DNA of 40,426 nt from a virus. A model generated the notes under the pieces. That model was not told where the DNA came from and made no database searches. It worked only from the letters and a program-made list of their open reading frames with translations. The number at the start of each line of letters is the position of its first letter. The first letter of the stretch is position 1. Shown piece after piece: positions 8,004 through 40,426 of the stretch. The stretch lies in the IMG/VR virus record IMGVR_UViG_3300029815_000032. One strand, 5' to 3'. The translations under genes were made by a program, and so were the position numbers.

Positions 8004-8142
8004 CAATTCCTCCTATAAATCTACCCCATATCGACACCAGTCTCCAAAAATCTTCAATAACTCGTCCTAGTATGCAGATATATACATAGACGGACATAAG
8101 GTTACGATTAACTCCGAAGATATGAGAAAGGAGAAGGATCAT

Positions 8143-11161: not shown

Positions 11162-11203
11162 CCATGACAGATACAAAAATCCCATAAATAGTATATGTCA
11201 TGG
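11162..11203. other. Large hairpin in the intergenic region upstream of the Rep gene (candidate origin / nick-site structure).
   Basis: 8-bp perfect stem ccatgaca / tgtcatgg, extendable with one mismatch, and an AT-rich 26-nt loop. Flanked by two more hairpins at 11131..11155 and 11221..11246. Confidence 0.35.
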
Positions 11204-11220
11204 GTGCCAAAAAGTCAAGG

Positions 11221-11246
11221 AAAACAGCGGTTTGTAGGCTGTTTTT
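11221..11246 (+). terminator. Terminator-like hairpin.
   Basis: Stem aaacagc / gctgttt with a T-run. Confidence 0.4.
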
Positions 11247-11281
11247 CAAACACTATCAAAATATTAAAGATAGAGGGAAAC

Positions 11282-13898: not shown

Positions 13899-13901
13899 GG
13901 A

Positions 13902-14408
13902 ATGGAAAGATTTTTTATCGTCAAAAACAAAGTATTGATCGAAAAGTATGAAAAATACAAGAAGATGCAGCAGGCTATGAATGAGTGCTTTAGAGAATTT
14001 GCAGAAAATCATGGCATTGAAGCGGATATGTATTATCCATCTGCAAACAAATTGAGCATTGTGGCCACCGAAGCGGACTTTGAAAAGTTTGGATCCCAGA
14101 TAAGAAAAAACACAGGTGGTATATTCAAGGAAAATTCCAAAATGGCGAAGGAATGGATAGCAATTTGCCAGAAAAACAGTCTGGAAACACCAATTAAACC
14201 AACCTATGTGACGGCACATTTGATCGGATTCACATCTGGAGGATTCCATATAAAAATGTTTGATGTTGACGGAGTATTATATGGCAGTTATCGGGTTGAT
14301 ATAGACTGGGAGTTCCCAAAAACGGATGATTTTCAGGAAATCAAGGCAAGTGAATTTTGGAAGATCGTAGAAAATGATAAGGAGAAGGAGCGTGAAAAGT
14401 GCAGGTAA
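13902..14408 (+). CDS. Hypothetical protein.
   Basis: AAGGAG RBS; compact spacing in the operon. Confidence 0.6.
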   Translation: MERFFIVKNKVLIEKYEKYKKMQQAMNECFREFAENHGIEADMYYPSANKLSIVATEADFEKFGSQIRKNTGGIFKENSKMAKEWIAICQKNSLETPIKPTYVTAHLIGFTSGGFHIKMFDVDGVLYGSYRVDIDWEFPKTDDFQEIKASEFWKIVENDKEKEREKCR

Positions 14409-15016
14409 AAGATGCTTCAAATAATGCAGCAGGCAAGAACGCTATTCGTGAAAAGGCATTGCGCTTAAATGATGATTTGGAAAATTGGATAGACATCGCA
14501 CATGAAGCATTTATGGGATGTGATGATGAGTTGGAAAAGGCAAGACTGGATGGAAAACTCAAGGCTTATTGGGAAGTGAAGAACCATGTGGAAGAAATGC
14601 TTGAGATCGATAAGAAAATTGATTGGAGCAAAGTTCCGGTCGATACACCTATCTGGGTTAAAGGTTTAAAGAGTGCCATGTGGAGAAAAAGGTACTTTGC
14701 AGGAATTAAGGATGGCCTAGTTTGCGGATGGAAAAACGGAAAGACATCTTGGACAGTTGAGAGTGAAGACGAGTGGAATTATTGGAACTATGCCATGCTT
14801 GCAGAAGATGTCGATTATCCACAGGTCAACTCCCAGTGGCACAACCTCAAAGATCAAAAACCAGAGGATAGACAGGAAGTGCTCACATGGGATGGAATTG
14901 GCGTAGAACTCGACAGATGGTCGGATGATGAAGACTATTTCGAGAACACCGACGCAGAGGATATCTGGTGGATGGAGTTGCCAGAACCACCGCAGAGAGG
15001 GGCAAACTATGAGTAA
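14399..15016 (+). CDS. Hypothetical protein (start uncertain).
   Basis: GTG 14399 overlaps the previous gene. Trp-rich C-terminus. Confidence 0.5.
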   Translation: MQVKDASNNAAGKNAIREKALRLNDDLENWIDIAHEAFMGCDDELEKARLDGKLKAYWEVKNHVEEMLEIDKKIDWSKVPVDTPIWVKGLKSAMWRKRYFAGIKDGLVCGWKNGKTSWTVESEDEWNYWNYAMLAEDVDYPQVNSQWHNLKDQKPEDRQEVLTWDGIGVELDRWSDDEDYFENTDAEDIWWMELPEPPQRGANYE

Positions 15017-15266
15017 TCTTGTTATTGTAGACAAAGATAAATTTGATCGGGAATTAGACAAATGCAATTCCTATAATATCAAAAACCAAGCCCAATATGC
15101 CTTGAGCGGTGCAATTTGTACTGGGGAAAAGGCAATGAAATCATATATAAGCCAGGAATGTGAGAGAAGCCAAAAAATGTTACAGAAATATGAAGTGATG
15201 AAAAAGAGGAATGCAGCGTACCAAAGACTACTAGATATGAATTCAAATTTTGACAAAGAAAACTAA
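15009..15266 (+). CDS. Hypothetical protein.
   Basis: ATG 15009 overlaps the upstream stop (ATGAGTAA). The track start at 14925 lies inside the previous gene. Confidence 0.55.
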   Translation: MSNLVIVDKDKFDRELDKCNSYNIKNQAQYALSGAICTGEKAMKSYISQECERSQKMLQKYEVMKKRNAAYQRLLDMNSNFDKEN

Positions 15267-15280
15267 AAGAGGATGAAGTG

Positions 15281-16174
15281 ATGGACTTAGAAAAACAGGC
15301 AATAGACATCTTGCGGACATTTGCAAGTGATGATCCATACCAATTAGCATATAGCGGCGGCAAGGACTCGGATGTGATCCTGCACCTTGCAAAGAAAGCA
15401 CAAGTGCCATTTAAGGCAGTGCATAATCTTACCACAGTAGATGCCCCAGAGACTGTTAGATATGTGAAAAGCAAAAAGGATGTGACAATAGAATATCCGT
15501 CAATGTCTATGTGGCAGTTGATCGTGAAGCATAAAACACCACCTACACGGATTTTTCGTTATTGTTGTTCGGAATTGAAAGAGCATAGCGGAAAAGGCAA
15601 GAAAACCATAACCGGAGTGCGAAAGGCAGAAAGTCGTAGCAGATCGAATAATCAAGGAATTGTGACTTTTCCTAAGCCGAACAAGACCATTAAAGGGAGT
15701 GTTGACAATGGCGATGTCTTAGCAAGCAGGAAGGGCGGTGTCATTGTATTAAACTACGAAAACGCTGACACACATAGGATGGTAGAGCAGTGCTACCGGA
15801 CAAGTAAGACGTTGGTAAATCCTATTTTGGAGTGGGATGACGACTATTTGTGGTGGTACATCCGGCATGAGGGAATAGAAATAAACCCTTTGTATAAAGG
15901 TGGATGCTCAAGAATTGGTTGTATCGGATGCCCCATGGCAGGAAAGAACAGATACAGAGAATTTGAACAATATCCAAAATATAAAGAAGCCTATATCAGA
16001 ACTTTCGACAGGATGCTGGAACACAGAAAACAGTGTGGTAACAAGAACGTTATGGGCTGGAAAACAGGGCAAGGTGTATTTGACTGGTGGATGGAAGATG
16101 AAAAAATTACCGGTCAGTATTCAATGACCTTTAATGGAACGGATATAGTTGGATATAGCGAAAAAATAACCTAA
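15281..16174 (+). CDS. PAPS-reductase-family (PP-loop ATPase) protein.
   Basis: AAGAGGA RBS 8 nt before ATG 15281. SGGKDS PP-loop motif. C-terminal Cys cluster GGCSRIGCIGCP. Confidence 0.8.
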   Translation: MDLEKQAIDILRTFASDDPYQLAYSGGKDSDVILHLAKKAQVPFKAVHNLTTVDAPETVRYVKSKKDVTIEYPSMSMWQLIVKHKTPPTRIFRYCCSELKEHSGKGKKTITGVRKAESRSRSNNQGIVTFPKPNKTIKGSVDNGDVLASRKGGVIVLNYENADTHRMVEQCYRTSKTLVNPILEWDDDYLWWYIRHEGIEINPLYKGGCSRIGCIGCPMAGKNRYREFEQYPKYKEAYIRTFDRMLEHRKQCGNKNVMGWKTGQGVFDWWMEDEKITGQYSMTFNGTDIVGYSEKIT

Positions 16175-23418: not shown

Positions 23419-23730
23419 ATGATAGAGGCAACCTTATTCAGATCAGGAAATACCTATAGTATTGATGTCACAGGTCATGCGGGATATGCGCCGGCTGGAT
23501 CAGACATCATATGTGCAGCAGTATCTGCACTGGTACAGTCGTTTGCGTTTTATTGCAGGAAGACAGACGGCATAAAGGTATTGGATGATGAAGCATCCGA
23601 GGGGATGGCAAGTATGGTCGTATATGGCAATCAAAGCAAGATAGACCCGGCATATGAGATGCTGAAAACAGGACTTTGGGAAATTTCTTTAAATTTTCCT
23701 AAAAATATTTTGGTGCGGGGGGAGAAATGA
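23419..23730 (+). CDS. prp: Prp-family (DUF464, ribosomal-processing cysteine protease-like) protein.
   Basis: MIEATLF...IDVTGHAGYAPAGSDIICAAVSALVQS matches the Prp GHA...G.DIVCAAVS motif, with the His and Cys dyad present. Confidence 0.75.
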   Translation: MIEATLFRSGNTYSIDVTGHAGYAPAGSDIICAAVSALVQSFAFYCRKTDGIKVLDDEASEGMASMVVYGNQSKIDPAYEMLKTGLWEISLNFPKNILVRGEK

Positions 23731-23751: not shown

Positions 23752-23807
23752 AAAAGCATAAAGATCTTTCCCCTTTATGGGTGACACTTCGGAAAGGACG
23801 ATGGAAT

Positions 23808-24731
23808 ATGGAAAAATTATTTGATTTACAGTTATTTGCCGAGGGCGGTGGAGCACCGGCAGGAGGCGAAGCAGGTGGAACTGTAACAACGGGAGTAGAA
23901 GGAGGCAGCCCCGAGCCTCAAGGCGAGGATTTATCCAAGGTCATTTATGGGAAATCCATTGAGGATGTAGCCGATCCACAGGGTGATACCACCAAGCCAC
24001 CAGAGGACAAGACCAAGACTTTTGAGAACCTTATCAAAAAGGGCGGCGAGTACGAAAAGGAATTTTCCAAACGTACACAGGACATTATCAACAAGCGTTT
24101 TAAAGAGACAAAGCAGTTGCAGGAGCAGTTGAACAGTCGCACACCAATTATGGAGACGCTTGCACGCAAGTATGGTCTAAAGGCAGATGATGCCGAAGGG
24201 ATCATGAAAGCACTGGATAGTGATACCGCCATGTATGAGAAAGCGGCTTTTGACGAAGGACTGACAGTGGAGCAGTACCGGGAGCGTGAGCAGTTAAGAC
24301 GCGAAAACGCACAGTTGAAAGCGGCAGAAGATGAACTCAAACAGAGGGAACAGTCACAAAGGATCTATGCACAGTGGGAGCAGGAATCCAATGATTTTGC
24401 ACAGAGATACGGAATCAAGGATTTTGATCTTGCCACAGAAGCACAGAACCCGGAGTTTACCAGACTGTTAGCAAACGGCATTAGCATTGAGGCGGCATAT
24501 AAGGCGATCCATTTTGACGACATGATGAATGGAGCAATGGCACAGACAGCCGACAATGTGAGTAAGGCTCTGGCAAGCAGAGTTGCCACAAGAGCCAATA
24601 GGGTCTCTGAAAACGGTGTTGATTCTCAAAACAACAACAGTATCTTCAAGTCAGATGTGAATAAGTTGACAGATGCAGATCTGGCAGAAATTTGTAGGCG
24701 GGTAAAGAATGGAGAGAAAGTCTCTTTCTAG
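23808..24731 (+). CDS. Scaffolding protein with an L27-like N-terminal leader.
   Basis: ATG 23808 (MEKLFDLQLFAEGGG...). Highly charged and helical. Directly precedes the major capsid gene. Confidence 0.75.
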   Translation: MEKLFDLQLFAEGGGAPAGGEAGGTVTTGVEGGSPEPQGEDLSKVIYGKSIEDVADPQGDTTKPPEDKTKTFENLIKKGGEYEKEFSKRTQDIINKRFKETKQLQEQLNSRTPIMETLARKYGLKADDAEGIMKALDSDTAMYEKAAFDEGLTVEQYREREQLRRENAQLKAAEDELKQREQSQRIYAQWEQESNDFAQRYGIKDFDLATEAQNPEFTRLLANGISIEAAYKAIHFDDMMNGAMAQTADNVSKALASRVATRANRVSENGVDSQNNNSIFKSDVNKLTDADLAEICRRVKNGEKVSF

Positions 24732-24754: not shown

Positions 24755-25744
24755 ATGAATAAGAACAGAAGACTTATGAATTTGCAGATGTTCGCAAATT
24801 CTAACACAAACGTAACAACAGATTCCGGCATGACTGCCGAGATGAAAACCTTTTACGACAAGAACTTGATCCGTATGGCGAAGGCAAATCTGGTACATGA
24901 CCAGTTTGCCCAGACCAGAGACATCCCTAAGAATGGCGGTAAGACGGTAGAGTTTCGACAGTATGATCCACTGCCAAAGGCAAGCCAGCCATTAACAGAA
25001 GGTGTAACACCGGATGGCAAGAAGTTGTCCGTTAAGACCAAGACCTCTACGGTAAAGCAGTATGGCGATTATGTAGAGTTATCAGACGTCCTGATCATGA
25101 CGGCGATCGACAACAACGTGGTAGAAGCAACAGAGATTTTAGGAGATCAGGCAGGACGTACCTTGGATTCCATCACACGAGATGCGATCAACTCAGGTAC
25201 CAATGTCATCTATGCAGGTGGAAGAACTTCGCGTAAGACCTTGACTGACGAGGACACCTTAAAGCCTATTCTTTTTGAAAAAGCGGCAACCCAGTTAAAG
25301 GCGGCAAACACACCTAAGATCAATGGATCCTATGTAGCGATCATCAATCCGTATGCATCTTATGATCTGCGTACCTCGGATGAATGGATCGAGGTACATA
25401 AGTACGCGGATGCAACACCGATCTTTGAGGGCGAGATTGGAAAACTTGGCAATGTGAGATTTGTAGAATCTACAGAAGCCAAGATCTGGAAAGATGAGTC
25501 ATGCCCGGAAGGAAAGGCAGTATTCAGCACGCTTGTCGTTGGGTTAAATGCCTATGCAACCACTAAGGTAGAAGGTGGCGGCTTACAGACCATCATTAAG
25601 CAGTTGGGATCCGGTGAAGACCCATTGAACCAGAGAGCAACGGTCGGCTGGAAAGCAATCAAGACGGCAAAGATTTTGGTAGAGCCATATATGGTCCGTA
25701 TCGAATCCCTGTCAGCGTATTCAGCAGACGTAGATGCTAACTAG
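24755..25744 (+). CDS. Major capsid protein (HK97-fold type) with an L27-like N-terminal leader.
   Basis: GAAGGAG RBS. MNKNRRLMNLQMFANS... then ...FYDKNLIRMAKANLVHDQFAQ...GGKTVEFRQY, typical of major capsid proteins. 329 aa. Confidence 0.85.
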   Translation: MNKNRRLMNLQMFANSNTNVTTDSGMTAEMKTFYDKNLIRMAKANLVHDQFAQTRDIPKNGGKTVEFRQYDPLPKASQPLTEGVTPDGKKLSVKTKTSTVKQYGDYVELSDVLIMTAIDNNVVEATEILGDQAGRTLDSITRDAINSGTNVIYAGGRTSRKTLTDEDTLKPILFEKAATQLKAANTPKINGSYVAIINPYASYDLRTSDEWIEVHKYADATPIFEGEIGKLGNVRFVESTEAKIWKDESCPEGKAVFSTLVVGLNAYATTKVEGGGLQTIIKQLGSGEDPLNQRATVGWKAIKTAKILVEPYMVRIESLSAYSADVDAN

Positions 25745-29536: not shown

Positions 29537-32500
29537 ATGGCAAAAAGAAAAACGTTTGACGAAATCTTACAGGAGCGCTACGGATCAAGTGAGGATGAAA
29601 GCACCGGAGTAAATGATAGATCCTATGATGATATCATGCTCGAGCGCAGATTGAGTGGAAAGGAATCTGATAAATGGACTTCGGATATGACGAAAGCCTT
29701 TAATCAGGGCAACAGATACTCCAAGCAGGCATATGAAGGGGCAGTGGAGATTGCTAAGAACAGCAGAAGAGTAAAAACCGGCGCAGAGCGTTATGGCTTG
29801 TTCTCCGGTGGAAATGAGGAAATGAATAAGGGGATCCTGCATAAGGCATCCAATTATATCAAGTCTAAAATCGATGACGGAAAAAGTGAGATCACAGAGG
29901 AAGAAAGTCTGAAACATGCAAGTAATGTGCTTGCCGGAGTATCAGAGGACAACCAGGCACTTTTGAAAAAGTATGTGGACGCACAGGATTCCAGTAAGAG
30001 CACTCCGTTTATGTATCTGATGAATACGGATTCGCCGGTCATGCAGAAACAGCAGATGAAGGACAGTGAGACCATGGACGCGGTAAAGAAGCAGTTCATG
30101 GAAAATACCGGTGTTGATGAAAAGACCTTTAATAAGATGGTCGCCAATTATGGATATACATACCATGCCGACGAGAACGAAAAACAGAAAAAAAAGTTGC
30201 AGCAGTCATCAGGAGCAACAAAAGCACTTGCCAGTGCCGTAGATGTCTTAGCGTCTCCGGTAACTGGTTTTGTAGCATTGGCGGGTACCGGAAAGAACCA
30301 GGTAGACCCGGAACTGGGAAGGGATAAACACACAGTCTATTCTTCACTGAAAGATTTTTCAGAGAACACGGAAGAGGCTGTGTTAAACGATGCAGAAAAG
30401 ATCGATAATAAGGCACTGCGTACCGCGGCAAAGGGGGCATACGAAATCGGCATGGCGACCGGAAAGAGTGCAATGAGCATGATGACCGGTAGTGAGGCGG
30501 CAAGTGCGCTGGGGCTGACCGGAAAGAGTGCAAGAGCCGTGGCAAATCTGGTATCACTGCCGCAGTTTGGCGCGTCATCTTATGTATCTACACTGGAAGA
30601 GGCACAGGAAAGAGGACTTGATACAAAGGACGCTTACCGGACTGCACTTGTCGCAGGTGGAGCAGAGATGGCGACCGAGGTTATCTCACTGGAAGGCATC
30701 TGGGATATTTTAGAGAGCAAAGGAAAAGTTGCTGCAAAGACTGCGATCGGAAATGTATTGAAGCAGAGTTTCTTTGAGGGATCCGAGGAAGTGGCAAATG
30801 ATCTTATCAATGAGATTGCGGATGGATTGATCAATGGGGACAAGAGTAAGTACGTCCAATCCGTCCGGTATTATATGTCAGATCAGTATGCAAAGGAAAA
30901 TGGACTGGATGCACCACTTTCAGAGGATGAGGCTAAGAAAAAAGCCAATATTGACTTTGCAAAGAGTACAGCGATAGATGGTTTCCTTGGTGCGGCCAGT
31001 GGTGGACTGATGGGTGGTGCGGCAACGGCGATCAATGCCTATGCCAATACAAAAGGCGGTCAGTATTTGAGTGGCAACGAGCAGATCCGGGATGATATTG
31101 TACTGAACAAGGATTCAGAAAATTATATCTCTGATGACAGAGCAGATTATGACAGCGAGGAAGACTACCAGAAAGCCCAGGCTGCCATTGAGCAGTTGAT
31201 TGATGACTCAGGCGAGAAGATTTCCGGTAAAGAGGCTAGAAGTCTGTATCAGAATGTGGCAGAGGCTATCGGAAGTCAGAACTCAAACCGGGCAGAGGCA
31301 AGAGTGCAGCGTGAGGTAGAGACAATCGAGAGCGCACAGACCCCGGATGAACTCGTGAGAGCCACAGAGAGCGTGAAGAATGATGTTCCAGAAGTGCAGC
31401 AGGCTATCGACAATACAAAGGCTAGAATGGTCGCACAGGGAGCGACACAGGCAGACTTTGACAATGTAGTTACACCTACCAGAGCATACGAGATGGCAAA
31501 AAGAGGACAGGTTTCTGAAAGTGATCTTGCATCCATGTCTACCGATGCAAGACGTGCGGCAGAAGCAGGAATTTCAGAGAGTGTAAGTGCGGATATTAAG
31601 AACGTGACGAAGTTCGATGCATCTACAGTCCTTGTAAAGGAAAATGGCAAGGCAAAGCAGACCAACATCACAGGAGAAGTCACCAAGAGCGGAGATCAGT
31701 ATTATCTGACGACCAAGAAGGGAGCAAAGGTCGAACTGTCAGAGGATATTTTAAGTGGAACGACCAAAGCAAACGGAGATAATACAAAGGGAAAACTTCT
31801 CATGTATGGTAATAGCCATGCAGCAGGCATTATTTCATTGGAAGACCCGGAACTCATGACGATTGCCTTGCAGACCAAGATCAATCAGCCAAGCGTACCG
31901 TCCACAAGTATTGTAAAGGCTGTGAAAACCTTTAATACATTAGGGCGTAGTGGGGTGTCCTTTGAATCTATTGTAAACGATAAAAAGCAGAAGTTTATGG
32001 TTGATGCGATCGGGGAAAAGGTACTGCGACAGGCATATGATCTGGGAGCAAAAGAAGGTGCGCTGGATGAAGAGAAGATGGCAAACCCTACCACGAAAAA
32101 AGGAAATGGTAAGGTTTCTTTTGCGAGCCGGGAAGCAGAGGGCGCATATGAAAAACTGGATCATGCAAATAAGACTTTTTTGGATAAGTTTGCTGAAAAG
32201 ACAGGAGTAGATTTTGAAATCTTTACCGATGATGCGGATGCAGAGGGAACGGTCAGAGGACAGTATGTGCCGGAAGAAGGAAAGATCCGTCTGAATGTGG
32301 CAGAAGATACAGATATCTTAGAAGTTGCCATGCATGAAGGTATAGGCGAGTTCTTAAAGGCACATAATGCCAAAGGCTATGCAGAGATCACAGAGACGAT
32401 TTTAGATTACTATGCAGAGAATAATGCGGATGCATTGGCAAAGCGTATTGAGGACTACAAGAGAGCCTACAGCGATGAGGAAGGAAAGTCTACCAGAGGA

Positions 32501-35500
32501 AGTGCAGATGAACTTGTAAACGATGTGCTGGCAGAAATCTTTTCGGATGATGCCGGTATTGAGAAACTGGGAACATGGCTTTTTGATAATGGTAAGGAAA
32601 AAGAAGCAAAGACGATCAAGGACGTGCTGATTGATTTTATCAACCAGATGAAGTCATGGATTGCAGACATCAAGGCGCAGGGTGGACTTTCTGCTGCGGA
32701 GCGCAGCAAACTTTCCATGACCGAAAAGGATATGGATGCATTGCAGAATAGGATCCTAAAGGCAATGGATGAGGCTATTGCGAACAGGGATAGCAGAGCC
32801 GAGGGCGAGACTGCGGAGCAGAGCATTAGAAATTCTGTGAAGGTTGATGCCAATGGAAAGCAGTATGTCGAGATCGACGAGGATATTATCAAGGGTATTA
32901 CTGGAAGTAAAAATATCAAGTCTGCTGTGCGTGCCTATATAAAAGAAAATTATCCTTCGATTGATATGATGGGATTTAAGTTAGGAATAAATGCACAATC
33001 GAGAAATGAATTTGTAAACTCCAAGACATCGCAGTATATGCAAAACAAATTAAAGAGATTTTTTATAGACAAAATGCGTATGGCAGGAAATCTGGAGGAA
33101 ATTGTAAATGTAGGAGACGGATATACATGGGAAGATATCAAGCACTCCAGGAAAGACAGACTAATTGGATTTGTCAGAGGAAATGTGCAAATTAGAGTAG
33201 GAAGCAATGATTATATTGCAGATATTGTATTGGCTGATGATAAGACCAAAGGATTGATATTCTACGATATTGTAAACATGAAGTCTACAGCAATAAAAGA
33301 AGCACCTACAGAGCGTACACATGAAAATCATGCGGCTCAGGTCGCAGGTGCTTCTACAGATAGTATATCCCAAAATAAAAAAAATGCAACCGAAATCGCT
33401 GAAAAAGGTAGAAATTCTGTAAAAGTTGAAGCAGAAACTCATGCCAGGGACGCAGAAAGGTTCTTTGGGACTACAAGGAACTGGTCTTATGCAGGTTATC
33501 TTGATATCAATGGAAAACTCTTAGATTTTTCTGATGGACAAAGATACCGAGTGCAGGATCATAGAGAAATAAGTGAGATTTTAGATTTACCAGAAGATGC
33601 AGGATATTCAGACGGCCTTATTCAGTTTATGGCAGAAGGTAATATCAGAATGCAGAAATATGGCATTGATATATCTGTCACACCTAATGAAGCACAGAAA
33701 GGTCGCCTGAGAGACTTCTTTAATCATCTTGAAGGAGAGGTTACTGTAGACTTTAGTGCTCTTAATGGGGATTCTGTGGGAAGTGCAGATTATACAGAGG
33801 GCACATCTGCAACGAGAATTCTAAATGATATTGATACATTCTTTGTGACTGGGGAAGTACCAGAAGGAACGTATAATGGAATCAATGAGTTTAGATATTC
33901 AAAGAAGGTAGACTCAGAAGGCAGAAAATTAACCGAAGCACAGCAGGAATACTTCAAGAACTCAAAGGCTGTAGATGAAGATGGAAATCTTATGACAGTG
34001 TACCATGGAACAGTCAGAGAGTTTTATGAGTTTGACCGGGAGCAAGGAAATCCAGAGGGAAACTTTGGTACAGGAATCTATTTTACTAACAATGAGGCTG
34101 ATGTTGACGAAAATTATGCGAACGAAAAGGGATCAGATCTGACAAATAAAATAGAACTTGAAGCAGACATGCTGGAGGGTACTGATGAATATGAGGATAT
34201 GGATCATGACGAGATTGTAGAAGCATTGAGAAAGAAATATATCACATCAGATGAGCCTATAACCATGGAGTGCTACTTAAACATAGAAAATCCGTGTTAT
34301 GTAGATTCTACTATGCTTTTAGACAATGTCGAAGACTATATGGGAGAAACCATTGAAGACTTTGCAGACGAAGATGAATATTATGAAGCACTGGATGAAA
34401 AAGCGGCAGAGATTGTAGATGATATTGTCGGAGAGATTAGTAGTAACATTGAATTATATAGCGGTACAGATGAAGTAGCAGCAATACTGGGAGAGGCACT
34501 GATGGATGGTGGTATTGCCGTTGAGGATCTGCGCGCGAGATTAGATGAATTATACCTAGAGGATGAAGAAGGGAGAATTGTATCAAGTGAGGTTTTGCGT
34601 CAGATTATAGAATCACTAGGATATGATGGAATTATTGATAGCACAGTGTCTGATAAATTTAAAAATATGAACTTATCAGAAGACATAACGCATTACATTG
34701 TATTCAATTCTAATCAGGCAAAATTTGTGTCGAATGAAAATCCGACAACCAGTGGGGATGTACGTTATTCCAGAAAAGTAAAAGATGCGCGTAAGTCCAT
34801 CAAAGAATACGGCATCGTAAGCCCATATCATGACACACTGAATGAGGCAAACGTAGTATCTGCCATTATGGGAAAAATGAATGAAGCCTTGGATGGAGTG
34901 AGTGTTGATCTTAATGGTGTTATGGATGTGACTAAGAGTATCATAAAGAAATATGATGCTGACATCAGCACAAATGATCTGGCAGGAGCAATCTGGCAAA
35001 CGTTCAGTTACATGAACAATAACCAGATGGAGACAGATTACCAGGGAATGATGGACTACCTGTTGAATATCGGTGACGAGGTCATTGCGACGTCGCAATT
35101 AAAAAATGCGGATCAGCAGGCAGTGTATGATGAGGTCAGAAAGCAACTGCGTACACATGCTATCCATTTAACCAAAGCCGACCGTGCGGAACTCGTTCAT
35201 AGATACGGATCATGGAATGAGGCTTTTGGGGCAATCCAGCAAGCCGGGATAAAGTTAGATAATAACGGCATCAGGATAGATTCTGCATATGGAGATATCC
35301 GAAATGAGATCATGAAATTATCCGGTGTGCAGATGTCGGAAGAGACAACGGCGGCAGATCAGATTGTAAATATCATTGATACGGTATCATCACTTGAACC
35401 GGAGGTAAGCACCTTTGAGGGCGCAAATGACCTGGATAAAAGTCTGATGGTTGCGTCTGACATCATCGATGAATACTATACGCGTGCAGTAAAGGAAATG

Positions 35501-38500
35501 AGTAACAATATTGTCGAGGGGACGGATGCCGGAAAAAAGGCGGTCAAGGAGGCGGTAGATAAACAGACCGAGAAGTTAAGAAAGGAGATGCAGCAGTATA
35601 AGAAAACGATCAGAGCATCTTATCAGAACCAGGTAACGAGGTATAAGACGGAATTGGAGAGGACGCAAAAAGACTTGCGTGCTGTGCAGAATAATTTGAA
35701 AAATTGGAAGCCGGTACCGGAAACACAAATCTTAAATCAGGCAGAACTGGATGCAAAGGCAGAGCAGATGGCCACAAAGGCACTGACAGATTATAAGATG
35801 GCGCAGGAACGGAGTAAACAGATAGATAACATCAAGAGAACCGGACACCGCATGATCCGGTGGCTGGATGCGCCGACGGATAAACAGCATGTTCCGGAGT
35901 TTTTGCAAAGACCACTATCTGAATTTTTGAGCAGTGTTGACTTTCTGCCGTTAAGAGCAAAGGAAACATCTAAGAATACCTTAGACTGGAGGCATCAGAT
36001 GATGGTATTAAAGGATGTGATCACAAGACTGAAAGAGAGTGACCCGGAGATAGATAGTGACGGCTATGCACTATCACAGGTTCTTGTTGTGGATGAATTG
36101 GTAGAAAAGATGCAGAATATCCTTGACAATAATCAGGATGTGAATATGAAGGTATCGAAACTTCCGGCAGGAGATCTGAAGGAGATGTCAGAGGTGCTAA
36201 GTTCACTTAGTGCTGCCATTAACCATATGAACACGACATATGCAAATAGCAGATATGCCGGCATTGGAGATCTTGCAAGAGCATCCATCAATGAAATGCA
36301 GGAGAGAAAACCAACCAAGACAGAAAGAACAAAGGTTGGTAACGCGGCATTTAAATTCTTTAATTTGGATGAGATCGAACCGCTGACCTTTTTCGAGGGA
36401 TTGGGATCTGCATCTGCAAGTGTTTATGAAGAATTACGCCACGGATTTGACATCAGAACCAATCATATCCGGGAGACGGCAGATTTCTTTGAAAATAAGA
36501 AAAAGGAACTGGGGATCTCCGATAAGGAAATGGCAGAGTGGGGAAAAGAGAAACACGAGTTTCATTTTCCGGGTGGAGATATTACCATGACAACGCCACA
36601 GATCATGTCCTTGTTAGAGACGGTCAACAGAAAGCAGGGCAAGCCTCATGTGGAAGCCGGAGGTATAAAAATAGCAGATACAGAGGTAAAGGTAGGAAAG
36701 GTCAAAAAGATCGTGCATATGACAAAGGCGGTACATATTGACGAGGCACAGTATGACACGATCATTTCTGAACTGACACCAAAGCAGAGAGCGATGGCAA
36801 ACGAATTGCAGCACTATATGGCTACAGAGTGTGCGGACTGGGGTAACCGGGTATCAAGAGAAATGTATGGATACAAGAAGTTCACGGAAAAGGACTACTT
36901 CCCATTAAGGACGGATTCAACAACCAGAGAAACAAAGCCAAGTGATGACCAGGCACCGTCCTACTATACCATCAAGAACAGGTCATTTACGAAGCAGATC
37001 ACACCGCATGCCGCAAATGCCGTTGTGATCGATGACATCTTTGATGTGTTTACCAGACATGTCGTACAGATGGCAGAGTATGACGGATATACTATGCCGA
37101 TTGCGGATGCCATGCGATGGTACAATTATCAGGAAAAAGAAATCAACACGATAAGAAATCAGGATCTGTTGGGAGAAATTGCGGGAGATACCACGAATGC
37201 AAGGAATGAGATCAAGAACAGTGTGAAGCAGAATATGGATCGCGTCCTTGGAAAGAATGCTGGAGCATATTTCCAACAGTTCATTAAAGACATCAATGGA
37301 GATTATGCAGGTACCGGCGGTACACCAGATCTGTCAACATACCTGATGTCATCATTTAAGGCACAGGCGGTAGGTGCAAACATAAGAGTAATTGTGCAAC
37401 AGCCGACAGCCATTGTACGTGCGGCAGATCGGATTGAAGCCAAGTATTTATTGCAGGCGCAGACATCCCTGCCAAAAGCAGTAGAGTATGCGAAAAAGTC
37501 GCAGGATAACTCTGCTATATCCTATTGGAAAGCGCAGGGATATTATGAAACACTCATAGGTAAGTCCTTGAAGCAGATCATTACCGGAGAGGGAACGGTA
37601 AAGGAAAAAATTACAGATGCCATGGGAAAAGGTGCCGGAATTGCAGATGACCTGACATGGGGTGTCATGTATCGTGCAGCAGAACTAAAGGTCAAGGATC
37701 AAAAACCGAATCTGAAATATGATTCAGAAGAATTTACCAAAAAGACGGTAGAGATCTTCGAGGACATCATCGATCATACCCAGGTAGTTGATACGATTTT
37801 TCATAAGTCACAATGGATGAGAAATCAAGGGCTGGGATATAGAGCAACATCTGCATTTATGGCAGAGCCGACAAAGACCTATAACATGTTTTACCGGGCA
37901 TATCAGGATTGCTTGAGAAGTGGTAACAAAAAAGAGATGGTAGACCATGCCGGAAGAACAGCAATGATCTTTCTTGTGGAGCAGGCGCTCAATGCAGCAG
38001 TTACAGGATTTATTGACGCATGGCGAGATGATGACAAGGACGAGGGTATTATAGGTTTCTTGCAGAGTGAGGCAGATCATACTAAGGAGAATTTCTTTGG
38101 AAATCTCTATGTGTGGAACCTGTTTCCGGTCATAAAGGAAGTACAGAACTTTATAGATGGGTATGATGCAACAGAATATACGACCGAAGGACTTGCAACA
38201 GCAGTTGATACTATCAGCGAATTGTATAAGGTTGTCATAGGACAGAGCAATAAGACATTTTATGGTGTGTCCTATCTGATCGCTCAGGGAATATCACAGT
38301 TAAGCGGTATCCCTATATCAAGCGCATTGCGCGAGGTGAAATCGTTATATAATACCTTAAACGGTATCTGGGGTGGTACGGATTGGTATAAATCAAAGAC
38401 TACACAGCAATCCGCAGAGAAAAGGAAAAGGCAGACAAACCTAAACAATGCTATCCAGAAGAAAGATCTTGAAGATAGCAAGAATGCCATGAATGAGATA

Positions 38501-38743
38501 TATCAGAATGCGTACGACAATGGCATTGCAAATGGAAAAAGCGAGAATGAGGCAGAGAGTGATGCGTGGTCTAGTGTCAGAAGCGCTTTAAAGAAATCGT
38601 ACCAGGAGCAGGAAGACAGATCCACGGCAACGATCAACCGCTATGTAACACTCATGCGAAAGACAAAGAAAAAGGTCAGTGGTAAGAATGAATTTAAAGC
38701 CGTAACGGAAAAAGATGCAAGGGACACGGTCAAAGGTTGGTAG
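29537..38743 (+). CDS. Giant (3068 aa) polyvalent virion/ejection-type protein with an internal effector-domain cassette including an ART-PolyVal-like ADP-ribosyltransferase domain.
   Basis: GGGAGAAG RBS and an uninterrupted ORF. ...LMTVYHGTVREFYEFD...GTGIYFTNNEADVDENYA...ITHYIVFNSNQAKFVSNENPTTSGDVRYSRK fits the ART-PolyVal pattern. A degenerate metallopeptidase-like VAMHEGIGEF is present. Recurrent R-[NY]-S-x-K-V linkers. Confidence 0.8.
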   Translation: MAKRKTFDEILQERYGSSEDESTGVNDRSYDDIMLERRLSGKESDKWTSDMTKAFNQGNRYSKQAYEGAVEIAKNSRRVKTGAERYGLFSGGNEEMNKGILHKASNYIKSKIDDGKSEITEEESLKHASNVLAGVSEDNQALLKKYVDAQDSSKSTPFMYLMNTDSPVMQKQQMKDSETMDAVKKQFMENTGVDEKTFNKMVANYGYTYHADENEKQKKKLQQSSGATKALASAVDVLASPVTGFVALAGTGKNQVDPELGRDKHTVYSSLKDFSENTEEAVLNDAEKIDNKALRTAAKGAYEIGMATGKSAMSMMTGSEAASALGLTGKSARAVANLVSLPQFGASSYVSTLEEAQERGLDTKDAYRTALVAGGAEMATEVISLEGIWDILESKGKVAAKTAIGNVLKQSFFEGSEEVANDLINEIADGLINGDKSKYVQSVRYYMSDQYAKENGLDAPLSEDEAKKKANIDFAKSTAIDGFLGAASGGLMGGAATAINAYANTKGGQYLSGNEQIRDDIVLNKDSENYISDDRADYDSEEDYQKAQAAIEQLIDDSGEKISGKEARSLYQNVAEAIGSQNSNRAEARVQREVETIESAQTPDELVRATESVKNDVPEVQQAIDNTKARMVAQGATQADFDNVVTPTRAYEMAKRGQVSESDLASMSTDARRAAEAGISESVSADIKNVTKFDASTVLVKENGKAKQTNITGEVTKSGDQYYLTTKKGAKVELSEDILSGTTKANGDNTKGKLLMYGNSHAAGIISLEDPELMTIALQTKINQPSVPSTSIVKAVKTFNTLGRSGVSFESIVNDKKQKFMVDAIGEKVLRQAYDLGAKEGALDEEKMANPTTKKGNGKVSFASREAEGAYEKLDHANKTFLDKFAEKTGVDFEIFTDDADAEGTVRGQYVPEEGKIRLNVAEDTDILEVAMHEGIGEFLKAHNAKGYAEITETILDYYAENNADALAKRIEDYKRAYSDEEGKSTRGSADELVNDVLAEIFSDDAGIEKLGTWLFDNGKEKEAKTIKDVLIDFINQMKSWIADIKAQGGLSAAERSKLSMTEKDMDALQNRILKAMDEAIANRDSRAEGETAEQSIRNSVKVDANGKQYVEIDEDIIKGITGSKNIKSAVRAYIKENYPSIDMMGFKLGINAQSRNEFVNSKTSQYMQNKLKRFFIDKMRMAGNLEEIVNVGDGYTWEDIKHSRKDRLIGFVRGNVQIRVGSNDYIADIVLADDKTKGLIFYDIVNMKSTAIKEAPTERTHENHAAQVAGASTDSISQNKKNATEIAEKGRNSVKVEAETHARDAERFFGTTRNWSYAGYLDINGKLLDFSDGQRYRVQDHREISEILDLPEDAGYSDGLIQFMAEGNIRMQKYGIDISVTPNEAQKGRLRDFFNHLEGEVTVDFSALNGDSVGSADYTEGTSATRILNDIDTFFVTGEVPEGTYNGINEFRYSKKVDSEGRKLTEAQQEYFKNSKAVDEDGNLMTVYHGTVREFYEFDREQGNPEGNFGTGIYFTNNEADVDENYANEKGSDLTNKIELEADMLEGTDEYEDMDHDEIVEALRKKYITSDEPITMECYLNIENPCYVDSTMLLDNVEDYMGETIEDFADEDEYYEALDEKAAEIVDDIVGEISSNIELYSGTDEVAAILGEALMDGGIAVEDLRARLDELYLEDEEGRIVSSEVLRQIIESLGYDGIIDSTVSDKFKNMNLSEDITHYIVFNSNQAKFVSNENPTTSGDVRYSRKVKDARKSIKEYGIVSPYHDTLNEANVVSAIMGKMNEALDGVSVDLNGVMDVTKSIIKKYDADISTNDLAGAIWQTFSYMNNNQMETDYQGMMDYLLNIGDEVIATSQLKNADQQAVYDEVRKQLRTHAIHLTKADRAELVHRYGSWNEAFGAIQQAGIKLDNNGIRIDSAYGDIRNEIMKLSGVQMSEETTAADQIVNIIDTVSSLEPEVSTFEGANDLDKSLMVASDIIDEYYTRAVKEMSNNIVEGTDAGKKAVKEAVDKQTEKLRKEMQQYKKTIRASYQNQVTRYKTELERTQKDLRAVQNNLKNWKPVPETQILNQAELDAKAEQMATKALTDYKMAQERSKQIDNIKRTGHRMIRWLDAPTDKQHVPEFLQRPLSEFLSSVDFLPLRAKETSKNTLDWRHQMMVLKDVITRLKESDPEIDSDGYALSQVLVVDELVEKMQNILDNNQDVNMKVSKLPAGDLKEMSEVLSSLSAAINHMNTTYANSRYAGIGDLARASINEMQERKPTKTERTKVGNAAFKFFNLDEIEPLTFFEGLGSASASVYEELRHGFDIRTNHIRETADFFENKKKELGISDKEMAEWGKEKHEFHFPGGDITMTTPQIMSLLETVNRKQGKPHVEAGGIKIADTEVKVGKVKKIVHMTKAVHIDEAQYDTIISELTPKQRAMANELQHYMATECADWGNRVSREMYGYKKFTEKDYFPLRTDSTTRETKPSDDQAPSYYTIKNRSFTKQITPHAANAVVIDDIFDVFTRHVVQMAEYDGYTMPIADAMRWYNYQEKEINTIRNQDLLGEIAGDTTNARNEIKNSVKQNMDRVLGKNAGAYFQQFIKDINGDYAGTGGTPDLSTYLMSSFKAQAVGANIRVIVQQPTAIVRAADRIEAKYLLQAQTSLPKAVEYAKKSQDNSAISYWKAQGYYETLIGKSLKQIITGEGTVKEKITDAMGKGAGIADDLTWGVMYRAAELKVKDQKPNLKYDSEEFTKKTVEIFEDIIDHTQVVDTIFHKSQWMRNQGLGYRATSAFMAEPTKTYNMFYRAYQDCLRSGNKKEMVDHAGRTAMIFLVEQALNAAVTGFIDAWRDDDKDEGIIGFLQSEADHTKENFFGNLYVWNLFPVIKEVQNFIDGYDATEYTTEGLATAVDTISELYKVVIGQSNKTFYGVSYLIAQGISQLSGIPISSALREVKSLYNTLNGIWGGTDWYKSKTTQQSAEKRKRQTNLNNAIQKKDLEDSKNAMNEIYQNAYDNGIANGKSENEAESDAWSSVRSALKKSYQEQEDRSTATINRYVTLMRKTKKKVSGKNEFKAVTEKDARDTVKGW

Positions 38744-38850: not shown

Positions 38851-40426
38851 ATGTTACGGAAATTAAAAGCAGTAGACTACCTGGCAATAGATGTTGCGTC
38901 TCATAAGAAACTTTCGATCTGTGTCATTAAAAATGATACTGTCGGACGTACTATTGTCTGCTCCGTTATGTCGCAGGGAAAGTCCGTCGATTTTACAGAC
39001 TTGTTGTTTGCGGAAATATTCATTAAGAAGCCGGATGGAAATGAAGCAGATCAGGGATGCATTATTGATGGAAATACCATTGCATACACCTTGAGAAGTT
39101 CAGATATTGCGGTTGTCGGAACAAATGTGGCGCAGTTCTTTTTGACATTTAAGGACGGAACCACACTCACGACACCAACATTTGATATTGAGGTCCATGA
39201 AGCGGTCTTATCGCAGAACGCACAGAAATCTTTTAATGAATATACTTCACTGACCCAGCAGATCGTCCTGGCAACAGAGAAAGCGGAGGACGCGGCAGAA
39301 TCCGCAAAGAATGCGGAGACATCCAACCAAAACGCACAGAAGGCATTGACCAGTGTAGAGACGGCAGAGCAGAACGTGATGCGTATGCAGGAGGATGTGA
39401 CGGCATCGGAAAGCCATGCAAAGGAAAGTGAAGTCAATGCCAAGGCAAGTGAGGAGCAGGCTAAAATCTATGCCGATCATGCAGCAGAATCTGAAACCAA
39501 TGCCAAACAATATGAGCAGAGTGTAGTTGCTAAGGCGACGGATATTCTGAATGCAGAGAGCCATGCCAAGGAGTATGCCAACAGCGCGGAACAGTCTGCA
39601 AATACGGCATCTGAAAAGGCACAGGCGGCTACGCTATCGGCAGAGGCTAGTTTGGCATCCGAGACAAAGGCGAAAGAGTCCGCGGATCAGGCAAATACAT
39701 CTGAAACCAATGCATCAACGTATGCCGACAGTGCGCGCTCCAGTTCCCAAGCATCCGCTCTATCCGAAGCCAATGCAGGCAAATTAGAAAAGAATGCAAA
39801 GGCATCGGAGAACAATGCGAAAACATCTGAAACCAATGCGAAAGCGTCAGAACAGGCGGCAGCGAAATCCAAGGATAGCGCCAAGTTATCCGCCGATCAT
39901 GCAGCAGTATCAGAAACGAATGCAAAAAATAGTGAATTGTCTTCGGCAGAGTCAGCAGACAATGCACAGAATAGTGAAACCTCTGCTAGTGCATCTGCAC
40001 TTGTGGCAAAGCAGTCGGAAACGAATGCCGAGACCTTTAAGACCAATGCATCCAATAGTGCATCAGCGGCCGCAACAAGTGAAACCAATGCCAAGGCAAG
40101 TGAACAGAATGCAAGCGCATATCTTGCGAGTGCAAAAACCTACGCGTCATCAGCAAGCACCAATGCCGACAAGGCAAGCAATAGTGCCACGAACGCTAAG
40201 GAAAGCGAAACGAATGCAGGTACATTTGCAACCAGTGCAAAAGAATCGGAATCAAACGCAAGTACATATGCGGCTACTGCAAAGTCCGATTCGGACAAGG
40301 CTCAAAATTATATGAGTTTGGCAGAGACTTTTTATAAAAAGTGCGAGGAAATTTCAAAGGGACTGGGAGGATCATTACTTCCGATGGGAACCATTACTTT
40401 TGCGGGACTAGATACAGCATCGCAAG
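38851..40426 (+). CDS. Tail fibre protein, N-terminal and shaft part. The ORF stays open at the window end and continues at 3..761; about 745 aa in total on the circular map.
   Basis: GAAAGGAG RBS before ATG 38851. BppU-N-like N-terminal domain (DTVGRTIVCSV...KKPDGNEADQGCIIDGNTIAYTL...TTPTFDIEV). Long Ala/Ser/Glu/Asn/Lys repeat shaft (SETNAK units). Not in the ORF track because it has no stop in the window. Confidence 0.85.
   Translation, partial: MLRKLKAVDYLAIDVASHKKLSICVIKNDTVGRTIVCSVMSQGKSVDFTDLLFAEIFIKKPDGNEADQGCIIDGNTIAYTLRSSDIAVVGTNVAQFFLTFKDGTTLTTPTFDIEVHEAVLSQNAQKSFNEYTSLTQQIVLATEKAEDAAESAKNAETSNQNAQKALTSVETAEQNVMRMQEDVTASESHAKESEVNAKASEEQAKIYADHAAESETNAKQYEQSVVAKATDILNAESHAKEYANSAEQSANTASEKAQAATLSAEASLASETKAKESADQANTSETNASTYADSARSSSQASALSEANAGKLEKNAKASENNAKTSETNAKASEQAAAKSKDSAKLSADHAAVSETNAKNSELSSAESADNAQNSETSASASALVAKQSETNAETFKTNASNSASAAATSETNAKASEQNASAYLASAKTYASSASTNADKASNSATNAKESETNAGTFATSAKESESNASTYAATAKSDSDKAQNYMSLAETFYKKCEEISKGLGGSLLPMGTITFAGLDTASQ
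40328..40426. repeat. Terminal direct repeat, copy 2 (identical to 1..99).
   Basis: Exact 99-bp identity with the window start. Confidence 0.95.

What the first reader, a model, noticed from the sequence alone, without database searches (positions are those of the whole stretch)
32825..34783. Effector modules inside the giant gene are delimited by a recurring linker, repeated even at nucleotide level, and are compositionally distinct
The motif [IGFV]-R-[NY]-S-x-K-V-[DEK] occurs four times at module boundaries:
- IRNSVKVD at 32825.
- GRNSVKVE at 33407.
- FRYSKKVD at 33890.
- VRYSRKVK at 34760.

The first two copies are also about 87% identical as DNA: AGAAATTCTGT[G/A]AA[G/A]GTTGA[T/A]GC at 32828..32850 and 33410..33432. 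They form a 23-bp direct repeat that exactly brackets one module. The stretch from about 32.9 to 34.8 kb is visibly more AT-rich than the rest of the gene; the ORF track shows a burst of spurious AT-type antisense ORFs there. Together this looks like a cassette-exchange site. Effector domains appear to be swapped into a conserved structural scaffold by recombination at the linker.
Basis: seen in the sequence. Interest (0 to 1): 0.65.

Follow-up and report, generated by a model that had tools for sequence, protein, structure and literature searches.

The report
Linker-delimited swappable modules in phage giant protein
A 3,068-residue gene of a gut-type temperate phage carries three interchangeable domains in its middle, each preceded by the same short peptide linker, and related phages have swapped, inserted or deleted domains exactly at these linkers.

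Summary
R-[NY]-S-x-K-V occurs four times in the giant gene (29537..38743) against 0.004 expected, only at the stated coordinates. The 20/23 DNA identity of the first two copies is barely above what the shared amino acids and codon usage predict (P=0.06). The AT-richness is real (GC3 0.26-0.32 against 0.47). The claimed burst of antisense ORFs is not.

The gene is a phage polyvalent protein (Iyer 2017). It has a conserved N-core ending in a zincin-like metallopeptidase domain, three linker-bounded modules (two unknown, one ART-PolyVal) and a conserved 1,326-aa C-core.

Six related metagenomic loci support cassette exchange:
- One backbone is 99.6% identical up to linker 2 and resumes just before linker 4, with unrelated modules in between.
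- Other relatives carry PBECR5, MuF_C, LPD3-like or double ART modules between the same linkers.
- Module and backbone divergence disagree at synonymous sites.
- One allele shows a crossover inside 74 nt of ART-tail-plus-linker homology.

The linker is conserved as protein, with synonymous codon changes. A looser form, [RK]-[YF]-S-[LIVFM], marks module ends across about 200 diverse giant proteins. I found no description of it in the searchable papers. I infer, without proof, that it is a flexible junction and possibly a processing site.

The parts
29537..38743 (+). Giant gene (3,068 aa): a phage polyvalent protein in the structural/late operon
   Evidence: ORF. ART-PolyVal PF18760. phrog_22978 covers both cores. 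It lies downstream of terminase, P22-like portal, Prp, scaffold and capsid genes, and in relatives upstream of a BppU_N-like gene.
29537..32827 (+). Conserved N-core (aa 1-1097)
   Evidence: Aligns to homologs down to 21-28% identity, and the alignments end at aa 1103-1146. DNA is 100% identical to L001 and 73% to L002.
32114..32827 (+). Zincin-like metallopeptidase (MPTase-like) domain at the end of the N-core. The motif is HEGIGE (HExxxE) at aa 933-938, followed by an invariant ExxxD.
   Evidence: Distant homologs have canonical HExxH (HELTH, HELGH) at the aligned site. H74, E75, E133 and D137 are invariant in alignment A1. The AF2 model (pLDDT 77) shows a helix, a three-stranded sheet and the HE helix. 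PDB matches are weak only.
32825..32848 (+). Linker 1, IRNSVKVD
   Evidence: The window-L003 alignment ends at 32797. pLDDT is below 50.
32828..33409 (+). Module 1 (aa 1098-1291), function unknown; GC 0.361
   Evidence: No Pfam, PHROG or NCBIfam hit. The family occurs in 33 giant proteins. Nucleotide identity to L002, L005 and L006 is 91-97%, while their backbones are 70-79% identical.
33407..33430 (+). Linker 2, GRNSVKVE
   Evidence: The 99.57%-identical alignment to L001 ends at 33407, and the alignment to L002 ends at 33429.
33410..33892 (+). Module 2 (aa 1292-1452), an undescribed domain with DHRE and GNIR motifs; GC 0.389, GC3 0.261
   Evidence: pLDDT above 90 for model residues 211-360. 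No library or PDB match. The family occurs in 24 giant proteins, usually ending in F-[RLM]-[YF]-S.
33890..33913 (+). Linker 3, FRYSKKVD
   Evidence: The similarity island to L002 and L003 starts at 33893. pLDDT is below 50 for model residues 362-373.
33893..34762 (+). Module 3 (aa 1453-1742): ART-PolyVal ADP-ribosyltransferase with a long acidic insert
   Evidence: PF18760, E = 1.4e-17, profile positions 1-139 of 140 matched to module residues 28-285. 4,509 representative proteins match at E <= 0.001.
34760..34783 (+). Linker 4, VRYSRKVK, preceded by the ART tail NQAKFVSNENPT
   Evidence: Alignments to L001, L002 and L003 resume at 34739, 34757 and 34757. pLDDT is below 50 for model residues 649-676.
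34763..38743 (+). Conserved C-core (aa 1743-3068)
   Evidence: phrog_22978, E = 4e-176. Aligns to homologs at 24-44% identity starting at aa 1707-1795.

Best explanation
The gene encodes a phage polyvalent protein built like a delivery scaffold. Its parts, in order, are a conserved N-core ending in a zincin-like metallopeptidase domain, a central array of independently folding modules and a conserved C-core. Every module starts with the same short peptide junction, R-x-S-x-[KR]-V-[DEK] in this lineage and [RK]-[YF]-S-[LIVFM] in the wider family.

Shown here:
- The junction is conserved at protein level.
- The unit that moves is a module with its junction.
- Related phages have replaced, inserted and deleted such units, leaving in-frame junctions at the linkers.
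- The modules have their own AT-rich composition and their own genealogy.

Inferred here:
- Exchange happens between co-resident phages or prophages by homologous recombination. It can resolve in the conserved cores, or in the short homology supplied by the linker and the adjoining ART tail.
- The peptide is kept because it is a flexible inter-domain junction. It may also be the site where the embedded metallopeptidase, or another protease, cuts the protein to release the modules after delivery. That would resemble processing of MARTX toxins or viral polyproteins.
For: - **Motif statistics and exclusivity:**
- **Module boundaries coincide with linkers:**
- **Replacement in a 99.6%-identical backbone, exactly from linker 2 to linker 4:**
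- **Other breakpoints at linkers 1, 3 and 4:**
- **Seven different central architectures among nine close relatives, all joined by the linker:**
- **MuF_C insertion:** in L005 relative to L006 the module sits directly after 'ARFSKKV' and brings its own 'RTSRKV' copy.
- **Mapped crossover:** it lies inside the 74-nt tail-plus-linker overlap in L004 relative to L001.
- **Incongruent divergence, also at 4-fold sites:**
- **Protein-level conservation:** R is encoded by AGA, CGT, CGC or CGG and S by TCT, TCA, TCC or TCG across 28 instances. The DNA identity is not significantly above the codon-usage expectation.
- **Generality:** [RK][YF]S[ILVFM] occurs 282 times against 88 +/- 6 expected in 202 non-redundant giant proteins, while the reversed control occurs 40 times against 89. 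The slightly broader pattern [RKQ][YFH]S[ILVFM] lies within 43 aa of 106 of 236 module C-ends, against 2.7% expected.
- **Junction specificity:** R[YF]S follows internal ART tails in 119 of 255 cases and C-terminal ART tails in 0 of 7.
- **Flexibility:** linkers 1, 3 and 4 lie in segments with pLDDT below 50 between confident domains.
- **Protease candidate:** an MPTase-like domain with conserved H, E, E and ExxxD lies directly upstream of linker 1. Iyer et al. 2017 (PMC5512222) proposed that MPTases in polyvalent proteins release domains by autoproteolysis.
Against: - No data here show cleavage.
- In this clade the MPTase motif is HExxxE rather than HExxH, so its activity is uncertain. Neither structure search nor PDB sequence search gave a significant zincin match.
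- The strict lineage motif is only about twofold enriched in the broader ART-bearing set, 41 against 18.8. The exact peptide is therefore clade-specific.
- Points where similarity ends do not prove crossover at the linker. Only one event places a crossover there, and it lies mostly in the ART tail, about 25-30 nt upstream of the RYS codons.
- One allele (P0004) has a deletion that is not at a linker.
- All relatives are metagenomic assemblies. Virion location, and delivery of the protein into the host, are inferred from gene order only.
- The AF2 alignment was shallow (24 rows), so low pLDDT at the linkers is weak evidence of disorder.
Confidence: 0.75

Rival explanations
1. The linker is mainly a proteolytic processing signal. 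The giant protein would be a polyprotein cut at each R-x-S-x-K-V, by its own MPTase-like domain or another protease, to free the modules. The recombination pattern would then be a side effect of every module having to carry a cleavage site.
For: - The peptide, not the DNA, is conserved.
- A related motif marks module ends in about 200 diverse giant proteins.
- R[YF]S is absent from ART tails that end a protein.
- The linkers are predicted to be flexible.
- The MPTase-like domain sits immediately upstream and keeps its putative metal and catalytic residues.
- Iyer 2017 predicts autoproteolytic release of domains.
Against: - There is no experimental or proteomic evidence, and no paper found describes such sites.
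- The second zinc-ligand His is replaced by Glu.
- The phage's only recognisable protease, Prp, cuts at LQxF|A sites. These are present in the scaffold and capsid proteins and absent from the giant protein.
- At linker 2 the residues after RNS are modelled as the first helix of module 2, at pLDDT above 90.
Confidence: 0.35
2. The linker is a DNA-level recombination site, a dedicated cassette-exchange sequence comparable to a shufflon or integron site. It would be recognised by a site-specific recombinase, or selected as a homology patch.
For: - The 24-nt family D1 is the strongest direct repeat in the gene.
- All 28 linker Ser codons are TCN, although 41% of Ser codons in the gene are AGY.
- The genome encodes a serine recombinase.
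- One crossover maps to tail-plus-linker homology.
Against: - The nucleotide identity is no higher than the amino acids and codon usage predict (P = 0.06), and the other linker pairs share 10-15 of 21 nt.
- Synonymous codons vary freely.
- There are no silent cassettes or extra copies elsewhere in the genome.
- The motif persists as a peptide in homologs of 25% identity, where DNA similarity is gone.
- The recombinase has the domain set of a large serine integrase and lies in the lysogeny region.
Confidence: 0.08
3. There is no special linker function. The motif is simply the conserved first strand or cap of related domains that arose by duplication. Breakpoints fall there only because selection removes recombinants that break a domain.
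For: - ART modules carry a long conserved N-terminal extension after the motif (VDSxGxxLTxxQxxYF) and a conserved tail before it (NQxKxxxNxNPT).
- The TCN-only Ser codons are compatible with common descent of the linkers.
Against: - The same motif precedes unrelated folds: M1, M2, ART, PBECR5, MuF_C, the LPD3-like module and the C-core.
- It is missing where no module follows.
- It lies mostly in low-confidence, non-globular segments.
Confidence: 0.15

Closest known systems
Polyvalent proteins of phages and conjugative elements (Iyer, Burroughs, Anand, de Souza, Aravind 2017, J Bacteriol; PMC5512222)
   Same: - It is a giant multidomain protein encoded among late/structural phage genes.
- It carries ART-PolyVal, and its relatives carry PBECR5, MuF_C and LPD3-like domains.
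- It has an embedded zincin-like MPTase.
- Domain architecture varies between relatives.
   Different: - That paper never uses 'linker', 'interdomain' or 'boundaries', and describes no recurrent inter-domain motif.
- Here a defined peptide marks every module junction, and exchange at it is documented at nucleotide resolution.
- The MPTase motif in this clade is HExxxE.
MARTX toxins of Vibrio and relatives (reviewed in PMC6315884; PMC4453568)
   Same: - Conserved N- and C-terminal regions flank a central array of modular effector domains.
- An internal protease releases the effectors.
- The effector set changes by recombination between strains (Kwak et al. 2011, cited in PMC6315884).
   Different: - There is no sequence relationship.
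- MARTX toxins are secreted bacterial toxins that act on eukaryotic cells. Their cysteine protease cuts after Leu in inter-effector linkers (my knowledge of the literature, not checked here).
- Here the carrier is a phage protein, the candidate protease is a zincin, and cleavage has not been shown.
Polymorphic toxins with a demarcating motif (CdiA VENN, Rhs PxxxxDPxGL; MuF toxins, Jamet et al. 2017, PMC5576092)
   Same: A short conserved peptide marks the point where a variable, laterally exchanged domain joins a conserved delivery part.
   Different: - Those systems vary one C-terminal toxin tip and pair it with an immunity gene.
- Here several internal modules vary, no MuF N-terminal domain was detected in the window protein, and no immunity gene is evident.
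- The MuF toxin paper mentions no linker or junction motif.
Viral polyproteins with repeated protease recognition sites
   Same: A repeated short peptide lies between functional units, and a protease domain sits in the same chain.
   Different: Processing has not been demonstrated here, and the units are accessory and interchangeable rather than a fixed set.

Membership tests
Phage polyvalent protein (Iyer et al. 2017) | Two or more unrelated effector-type domains in one very large polypeptide | tested here: met
   The window protein has ART-PolyVal plus two further independently recurring modules. Relatives combine PBECR5, MuF_C, LPD3-like and one or two ART domains.
Phage polyvalent protein (Iyer et al. 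2017) | Domains drawn from the polyvalent repertoire (ART-PolyVal, PBECR, LPD, MuF_C, MPTase) | tested here: met
   PF18760, E = 1.4e-17, full-length profile match. BFVD fold matches are to PolyVal ART and LPD phage proteins, E down to 6.5e-15.
Phage polyvalent protein (Iyer et al. 2017) | Zincin-like MPTase domain with HEXXH (or HEXXXH) and a downstream Glu | tested here: inconclusive
   Homologs have HExxH at the aligned site, while the window has HEGIGE. H, E and ExxxD are invariant. The predicted topology fits the published description. PDB sequence and fold searches are not significant, with E = 0.36 and 0.44.
Phage polyvalent protein (Iyer et al. 2017) | Encoded with late/virion genes; packaged and delivered with the DNA | not testable with these tools
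   Gene order supports a virion role: terminase, portal, Prp, scaffold, capsid, then the giant gene, then a BppU_N-like gene. Packaging and injection need proteomics.
MuF polymorphic toxin (Jamet et al. 2017) | N-terminal MuF domain with a single variable C-terminal toxin domain and a downstream immunity gene | tested here: not met
   No MuF domain was found in the window protein. The variable modules are internal, and the downstream gene is a BppU_N-like structural gene.
MARTX toxin | RTX-type glycine-rich repeats and an inositol-hexakisphosphate-activated cysteine protease domain | tested here: not met
   Pfam finds neither in the 3,068-aa protein. The resemblance is architectural only.
Site-specific cassette systems (shufflon, integron-like) | Conserved DNA recombination sites beyond coding constraint, plus silent cassettes | tested here: not met
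   The DNA identity is explained by the peptide and codon usage. The pattern has no copies outside the four sites.

The most novel reading that the evidence does not exclude
The [RK]-[YF]-S-[LIV] junction (R-x-S-x-K-V here) would be a general processing code of phage and plasmid polyvalent proteins. The embedded zincin-like peptidase would cut at every junction after injection, turning one packaged giant protein into a set of free effectors. The requirement that each module carry this site would be what makes modules freely interchangeable between phages.
Probability: 0.3. Interest if true: 0.75.

Novelty: new variant of a known kind. Interest (0 to 1): 0.55.

Why it matters
Polyvalent proteins are thought to be a main route by which phages and plasmids deliver early anti-host functions. 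Whether and how they are cut into working parts is still an open prediction from 2017.

A defined junction peptide has three uses:
- It gives exact candidate cleavage sites to test by mass spectrometry and mutagenesis.
- It gives a simple rule for splitting thousands of unannotated giant proteins into modules. One module here, M2, is a confidently folding domain with no known relative.
- It shows, at nucleotide resolution, how effector sets are reshuffled between related gut phages.

It also marks natural, tolerated insertion points for engineering cargo into such proteins.

Tried and rejected
- **Prp as the linker protease: rejected.** The scaffold and capsid proteins carry L27-type LQxF|A sites. 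The giant protein has no LQ.F at all.
- **Dedicated DNA recombination site: rejected**.
- **Identifying modules 1 and 2: failed.** Pfam, PHROGs, NCBIfam and Foldseek against PDB gave nothing significant.
- **Confirming the MPTase fold: only weak hits.** The PDB profile search gave E = 0.36 to the Ste24p HExxH helix. Foldseek gave E = 0.44 at best, with M1 aminopeptidases among the weak hits.
- **Named relatives in GenBank phages: none.** There was no DNA match, and only one 29%-identity protein match to an unannotated faecal contig.
- **Relatives in GTDB genomes and IMG/VR by pattern scan: none**. The host is therefore not identified. The L003 prophage contig carries MecA, RsmF and flavodoxin genes, which suggests a Firmicutes host.
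- **A second homology search with modules 1 and 2** returned only five proteins.
- **A short-motif HMM of the linker** was too weak to be useful.
- **The N-terminal RYS at aa 60** is not conserved in the family, so I dropped it.
- **Literature text searches** for DIRYS, DIRFS, NPDIRY and IRYSL found nothing relevant.
Full report
**What is in the sequence**

The window has one 9,207-nt ORF, 29537..38743 on the + strand, encoding 3,068 aa. The pattern R-[NY]-S-x-K-V occurs at aa 1098, 1292, 1453 and 1743. Residue shuffles give 0.004 expected copies, and none of 2,000 shuffles reached four. A back-translated DNA pattern of the motif hits only these four sites in the 40.4-kb window.

The first two copies are 20/23 identical as DNA and form the top direct-repeat family of the gene. 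Given the shared amino acids and the gene's codon usage, 16.9 +/- 1.7 identical bases are expected (P = 0.063). The remaining linker pairs share only 10-15 of 21 nt. The nucleotide repeat is therefore largely a consequence of the peptide motif.

The AT-richness is real. The three modules have GC 0.36-0.39 and GC3 0.26-0.32. The two cores have GC 0.46 and 0.44, and GC3 0.47. The claimed burst of antisense ORFs is not there; the region has fewer such ORFs per kb than the rest of the gene.

**What the gene is**

Pfam finds a full-length ART-PolyVal domain in the third module, with profile positions 1-139 of 140 matched at E = 1.4e-17. PHROG 22978, of unknown function, covers the end of the N-terminal part and the C-terminal 1,300 aa.

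A homology search returned 228 giant proteins. They share an N-core that ends near aa 1100 and a C-core that starts near aa 1745, with a variable middle. The start and end points of local alignments against these homologs cluster at the four linkers.

The last ~240 aa of the N-core align with a segment that carries a canonical HExxH (HELTH, HELGH) in distant homologs and HEGIGE in the window clade. H, E, a second E and a downstream ExxxD are invariant or nearly so. An AF2 model (pLDDT 77) has the topology that Iyer et al. 2017 describe for polyvalent-protein metallopeptidases: a helix, a three-stranded sheet and the HE helix. PDB searches gave only weak hits, so I treat the peptidase assignment as probable, not proven.

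The gene lies downstream of terminase, P22-like portal, Prp protease, scaffold and capsid genes. In relatives it lies upstream of a BppU_N-like gene. The window itself is a complete, circularly permuted temperate-phage genome: it has a 99-nt terminal overlap, a serine integrase and an amidase.

By these features the gene is a phage polyvalent protein in the sense of Iyer et al. 2017 (PMC5512222). Modules 1 and 2 match nothing in Pfam, PHROGs, NCBIfam or the PDB. Module 2 nevertheless folds at pLDDT above 90 and recurs in at least 24 giant proteins.

**Test of the cassette-exchange idea**

I fetched DNA for six relatives, L001-L006.

- **Window against L001.** The DNA is 99.57% identical from 19537 to 33407, the first base of the linker-2 motif. 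It is then unrelated and resumes at 34739, 24 nt before linker 4.
- **Window against L002.** The alignment ends at 33429, has an island starting exactly at 33893 (linker 3) and resumes at 34757.
- **Window against L003.** The alignment ends at 32797, just before linker 1, and resumes at 34757.

The relaxed motif R-x-S-x-[KR]-V-[DEK] occurs 3-5 times in each of the seven genes. Wherever module limits were mapped, these copies coincide with them.

The central architectures differ among close relatives:

| Allele | Central modules |
|---|---|
| Window | M1 - M2 - ARTc |
| P0002, P0003, P0005 | M1 - ARTa - ARTb |
| P0008 | LPD3-like - ARTa - ARTb |
| P0006 | M1 - PBECR5 module - ARTb |
| P0007 | M1 - PBECR5 module - MuF_C - ARTb |
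| P0009 | diverged M1 - ARTa |

In P0007 the MuF_C module sits directly after 'ARFSKKV' and ends with its own 'RTSRKV'. The inserted unit is therefore one module plus one linker.

L004 lacks ARTb relative to L001. The two flanking alignments overlap by 74 nt of ART tail plus linker, and the switch of parental sequence lies inside that overlap. This is direct evidence of a homology-mediated event at a junction.

Divergence is not uniform:

| Comparison | Measure | N-core | M1 | C-core |
|---|---|---|---|---|
| Window vs L002 | nucleotide identity (C-core = first 350 aa) | 73% | 91% | 69% |
| Window vs L002 | 4-fold-site identity | 42% | 83% | 37% |
| Window vs L004 | 4-fold-site identity | 84% | 40% | 83% |

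ARTa, ARTb and the PBECR5 module are also more alike across backbones than the backbones are. The modules thus have their own genealogy. This fits their distinct AT-rich composition, which is seen in all six relatives analysed.

**Limits of that inference**

- The place where similarity ends is the edge of the replaced segment, not necessarily the crossover. Downstream of linker 4, window and L001 are about 92% identical until about aa 2100 and then 99-100%. At least one exchange therefore probably resolved inside the C-core.
- One allele (P0004) has a large deletion that is not at a linker.
- All relatives are metagenomic assemblies. The in-frame, linker-joined architectures do recur in independent samples, and the window allele itself is represented by a 99%-identical cluster of 32 sequences.
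- The genome holds no silent cassettes, so donors must be other phages or prophages.

**What the linker is**

It is conserved as a peptide. Across 28 instances R is encoded by AGA, CGT, CGC or CGG, S by TCT, TCA, TCC or TCG, and V and K also vary. It precedes unrelated folds and the C-core.

A looser form is widespread. In 202 non-redundant giant proteins [RK][YF]S[ILVFM] occurs 282 times against 88 +/- 6 expected, while the reversed pattern is depleted, 40 against 89. The slightly broader [RKQ][YFH]S[ILVFM] lies within 43 aa of 45% of module C-ends, against 2.7% expected.

ART modules typically end NQxKxxxNxNPTxxxDI and then R-[YF]-S when another module follows. Of ART tails close to a protein's C-terminus, 0 of 7 have R[YF]S, against 119 of 255 internal ones.

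In the AF2 model of aa 1085-1760, linkers 1, 3 and 4 lie in segments with pLDDT below 50 between domains. Linker 2 sits where confidence jumps from about 51 to 91. The alignment behind this model was shallow, so this is weak evidence.

The strict lineage motif is only about twofold enriched in the broader ART set. The exact sequence is therefore clade-specific, while the core R/K-aromatic-S-aliphatic is general.

**Mechanism**

- **Shown:** linker-bounded modules are the units of variation, and they move between backbones.
- **Inferred:** exchange uses general homologous recombination between co-resident relatives. It would be anchored in the conserved cores, or in the short tail-plus-linker homology.
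- **Why the peptide is conserved:** I think a flexible junction that must be compatible with any neighbour is the minimum explanation. A processing site is an attractive addition. A metallopeptidase-like domain sits directly upstream, and Iyer et al. predicted autoproteolytic release of domains. Zincins commonly prefer a hydrophobic P1' residue, which R|Y or S|L/V would supply; that last point is my own knowledge and was not tested.
- **Ruled out:** Prp is not a candidate. Its LQxF|A sites are in the scaffold and capsid proteins and absent from the giant protein.
- **Not shown:** nothing here demonstrates cleavage, and the HExxxE variant may be inactive.

**Comparison with what is known**

Membership in the polyvalent-protein class is met on domain content and context. 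The MPTase criterion is inconclusive, and packaging cannot be tested with these tools.

The architecture works like a MARTX toxin: conserved flanks, a central exchangeable effector array, an internal protease, and variants generated by recombination (PMC6315884, PMC4453568). It shares no defining MARTX feature.

It resembles polymorphic toxins in having a demarcating peptide. It differs in having several internal modules and no MuF domain or immunity gene.

Neither Iyer 2017 nor Jamet 2017 mentions a linker or junction motif. Text searches for the motif found nothing relevant. The papers I could search are limited to open-access texts, and supplementary alignments were not checked.

**Verdict**

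The cassette-exchange interpretation is supported.

The gene is a new member of a known class. The defined junction peptide and the nucleotide-level record of exchange at it are, as far as I could find, undescribed. I rate it a new variant of a known kind, with interest 0.55.

Noticed in passing
window 1..99 and 40328..40426: The first 99 nt repeat the last 99 nt, and window 1..971 continues L001 directly after the region matching the window's end. The window is therefore a complete, circularly permuted phage genome with an assembly-type terminal overlap.
   Followed up: partly
window 23419..23730, 23781..24731, 24755..25744: A Prp cysteine protease gene is followed by scaffold and major capsid genes. 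Their N-termini carry ribosomal-protein-L27-type Prp sites (FDLQLF|AEGG and MNLQMF|ANSN).
   Followed up: partly
window 33410..33892: Module 2 is a compact domain with conserved DHRE and GNIR motifs. It is modelled at pLDDT above 90 yet matches nothing in Pfam, PHROGs, NCBIfam or the PDB. It recurs in at least 24 giant phage proteins and looks like an undescribed domain family.
   Followed up: partly
window 32333..32350 (aa 933-938): The metallopeptidase-like motif reads HEGIGE (HExxxE). Distant homologs have HExxH and some have HExxE. The downstream ExxxD is invariant.
   Followed up: partly
window 7501..8000: This is the lowest-GC patch of the genome (GC 0.258). It lies just upstream of the serine recombinase gene 6040..7410 (-) and overlaps ORF 7374..8006 (-). 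It may be the attachment or regulatory region.
   Followed up: no
linker Ser codons in window, L001-L006: All 28 linker serines use TCN codons, although AGY makes up 41% of serine codons in the gene. This is compatible with common descent of the linkers.
   Followed up: no
P0004 (aa ~1480) and L004 9003/8984: One relative has a ~500-aa deletion that fuses a truncated ART to the C-core away from any linker. Another has the giant gene split into two overlapping ORFs. These may be defective alleles or assembly errors.
   Followed up: no
window 11195..16174: The early region encodes a Rep_ORF2/G2P-like protein, a ParB-like protein and a PAPS-reductase-domain protein. The last two may form a DNA-modification or anti-restriction pair.
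   Followed up: no
window 34100..34600 (aa ~1520-1690): The window's ART-PolyVal has a long acidic helical insert between the two halves of the Pfam profile. This ART variant is common: 227 representative proteins match at E <= 1e-30.
   Followed up: no
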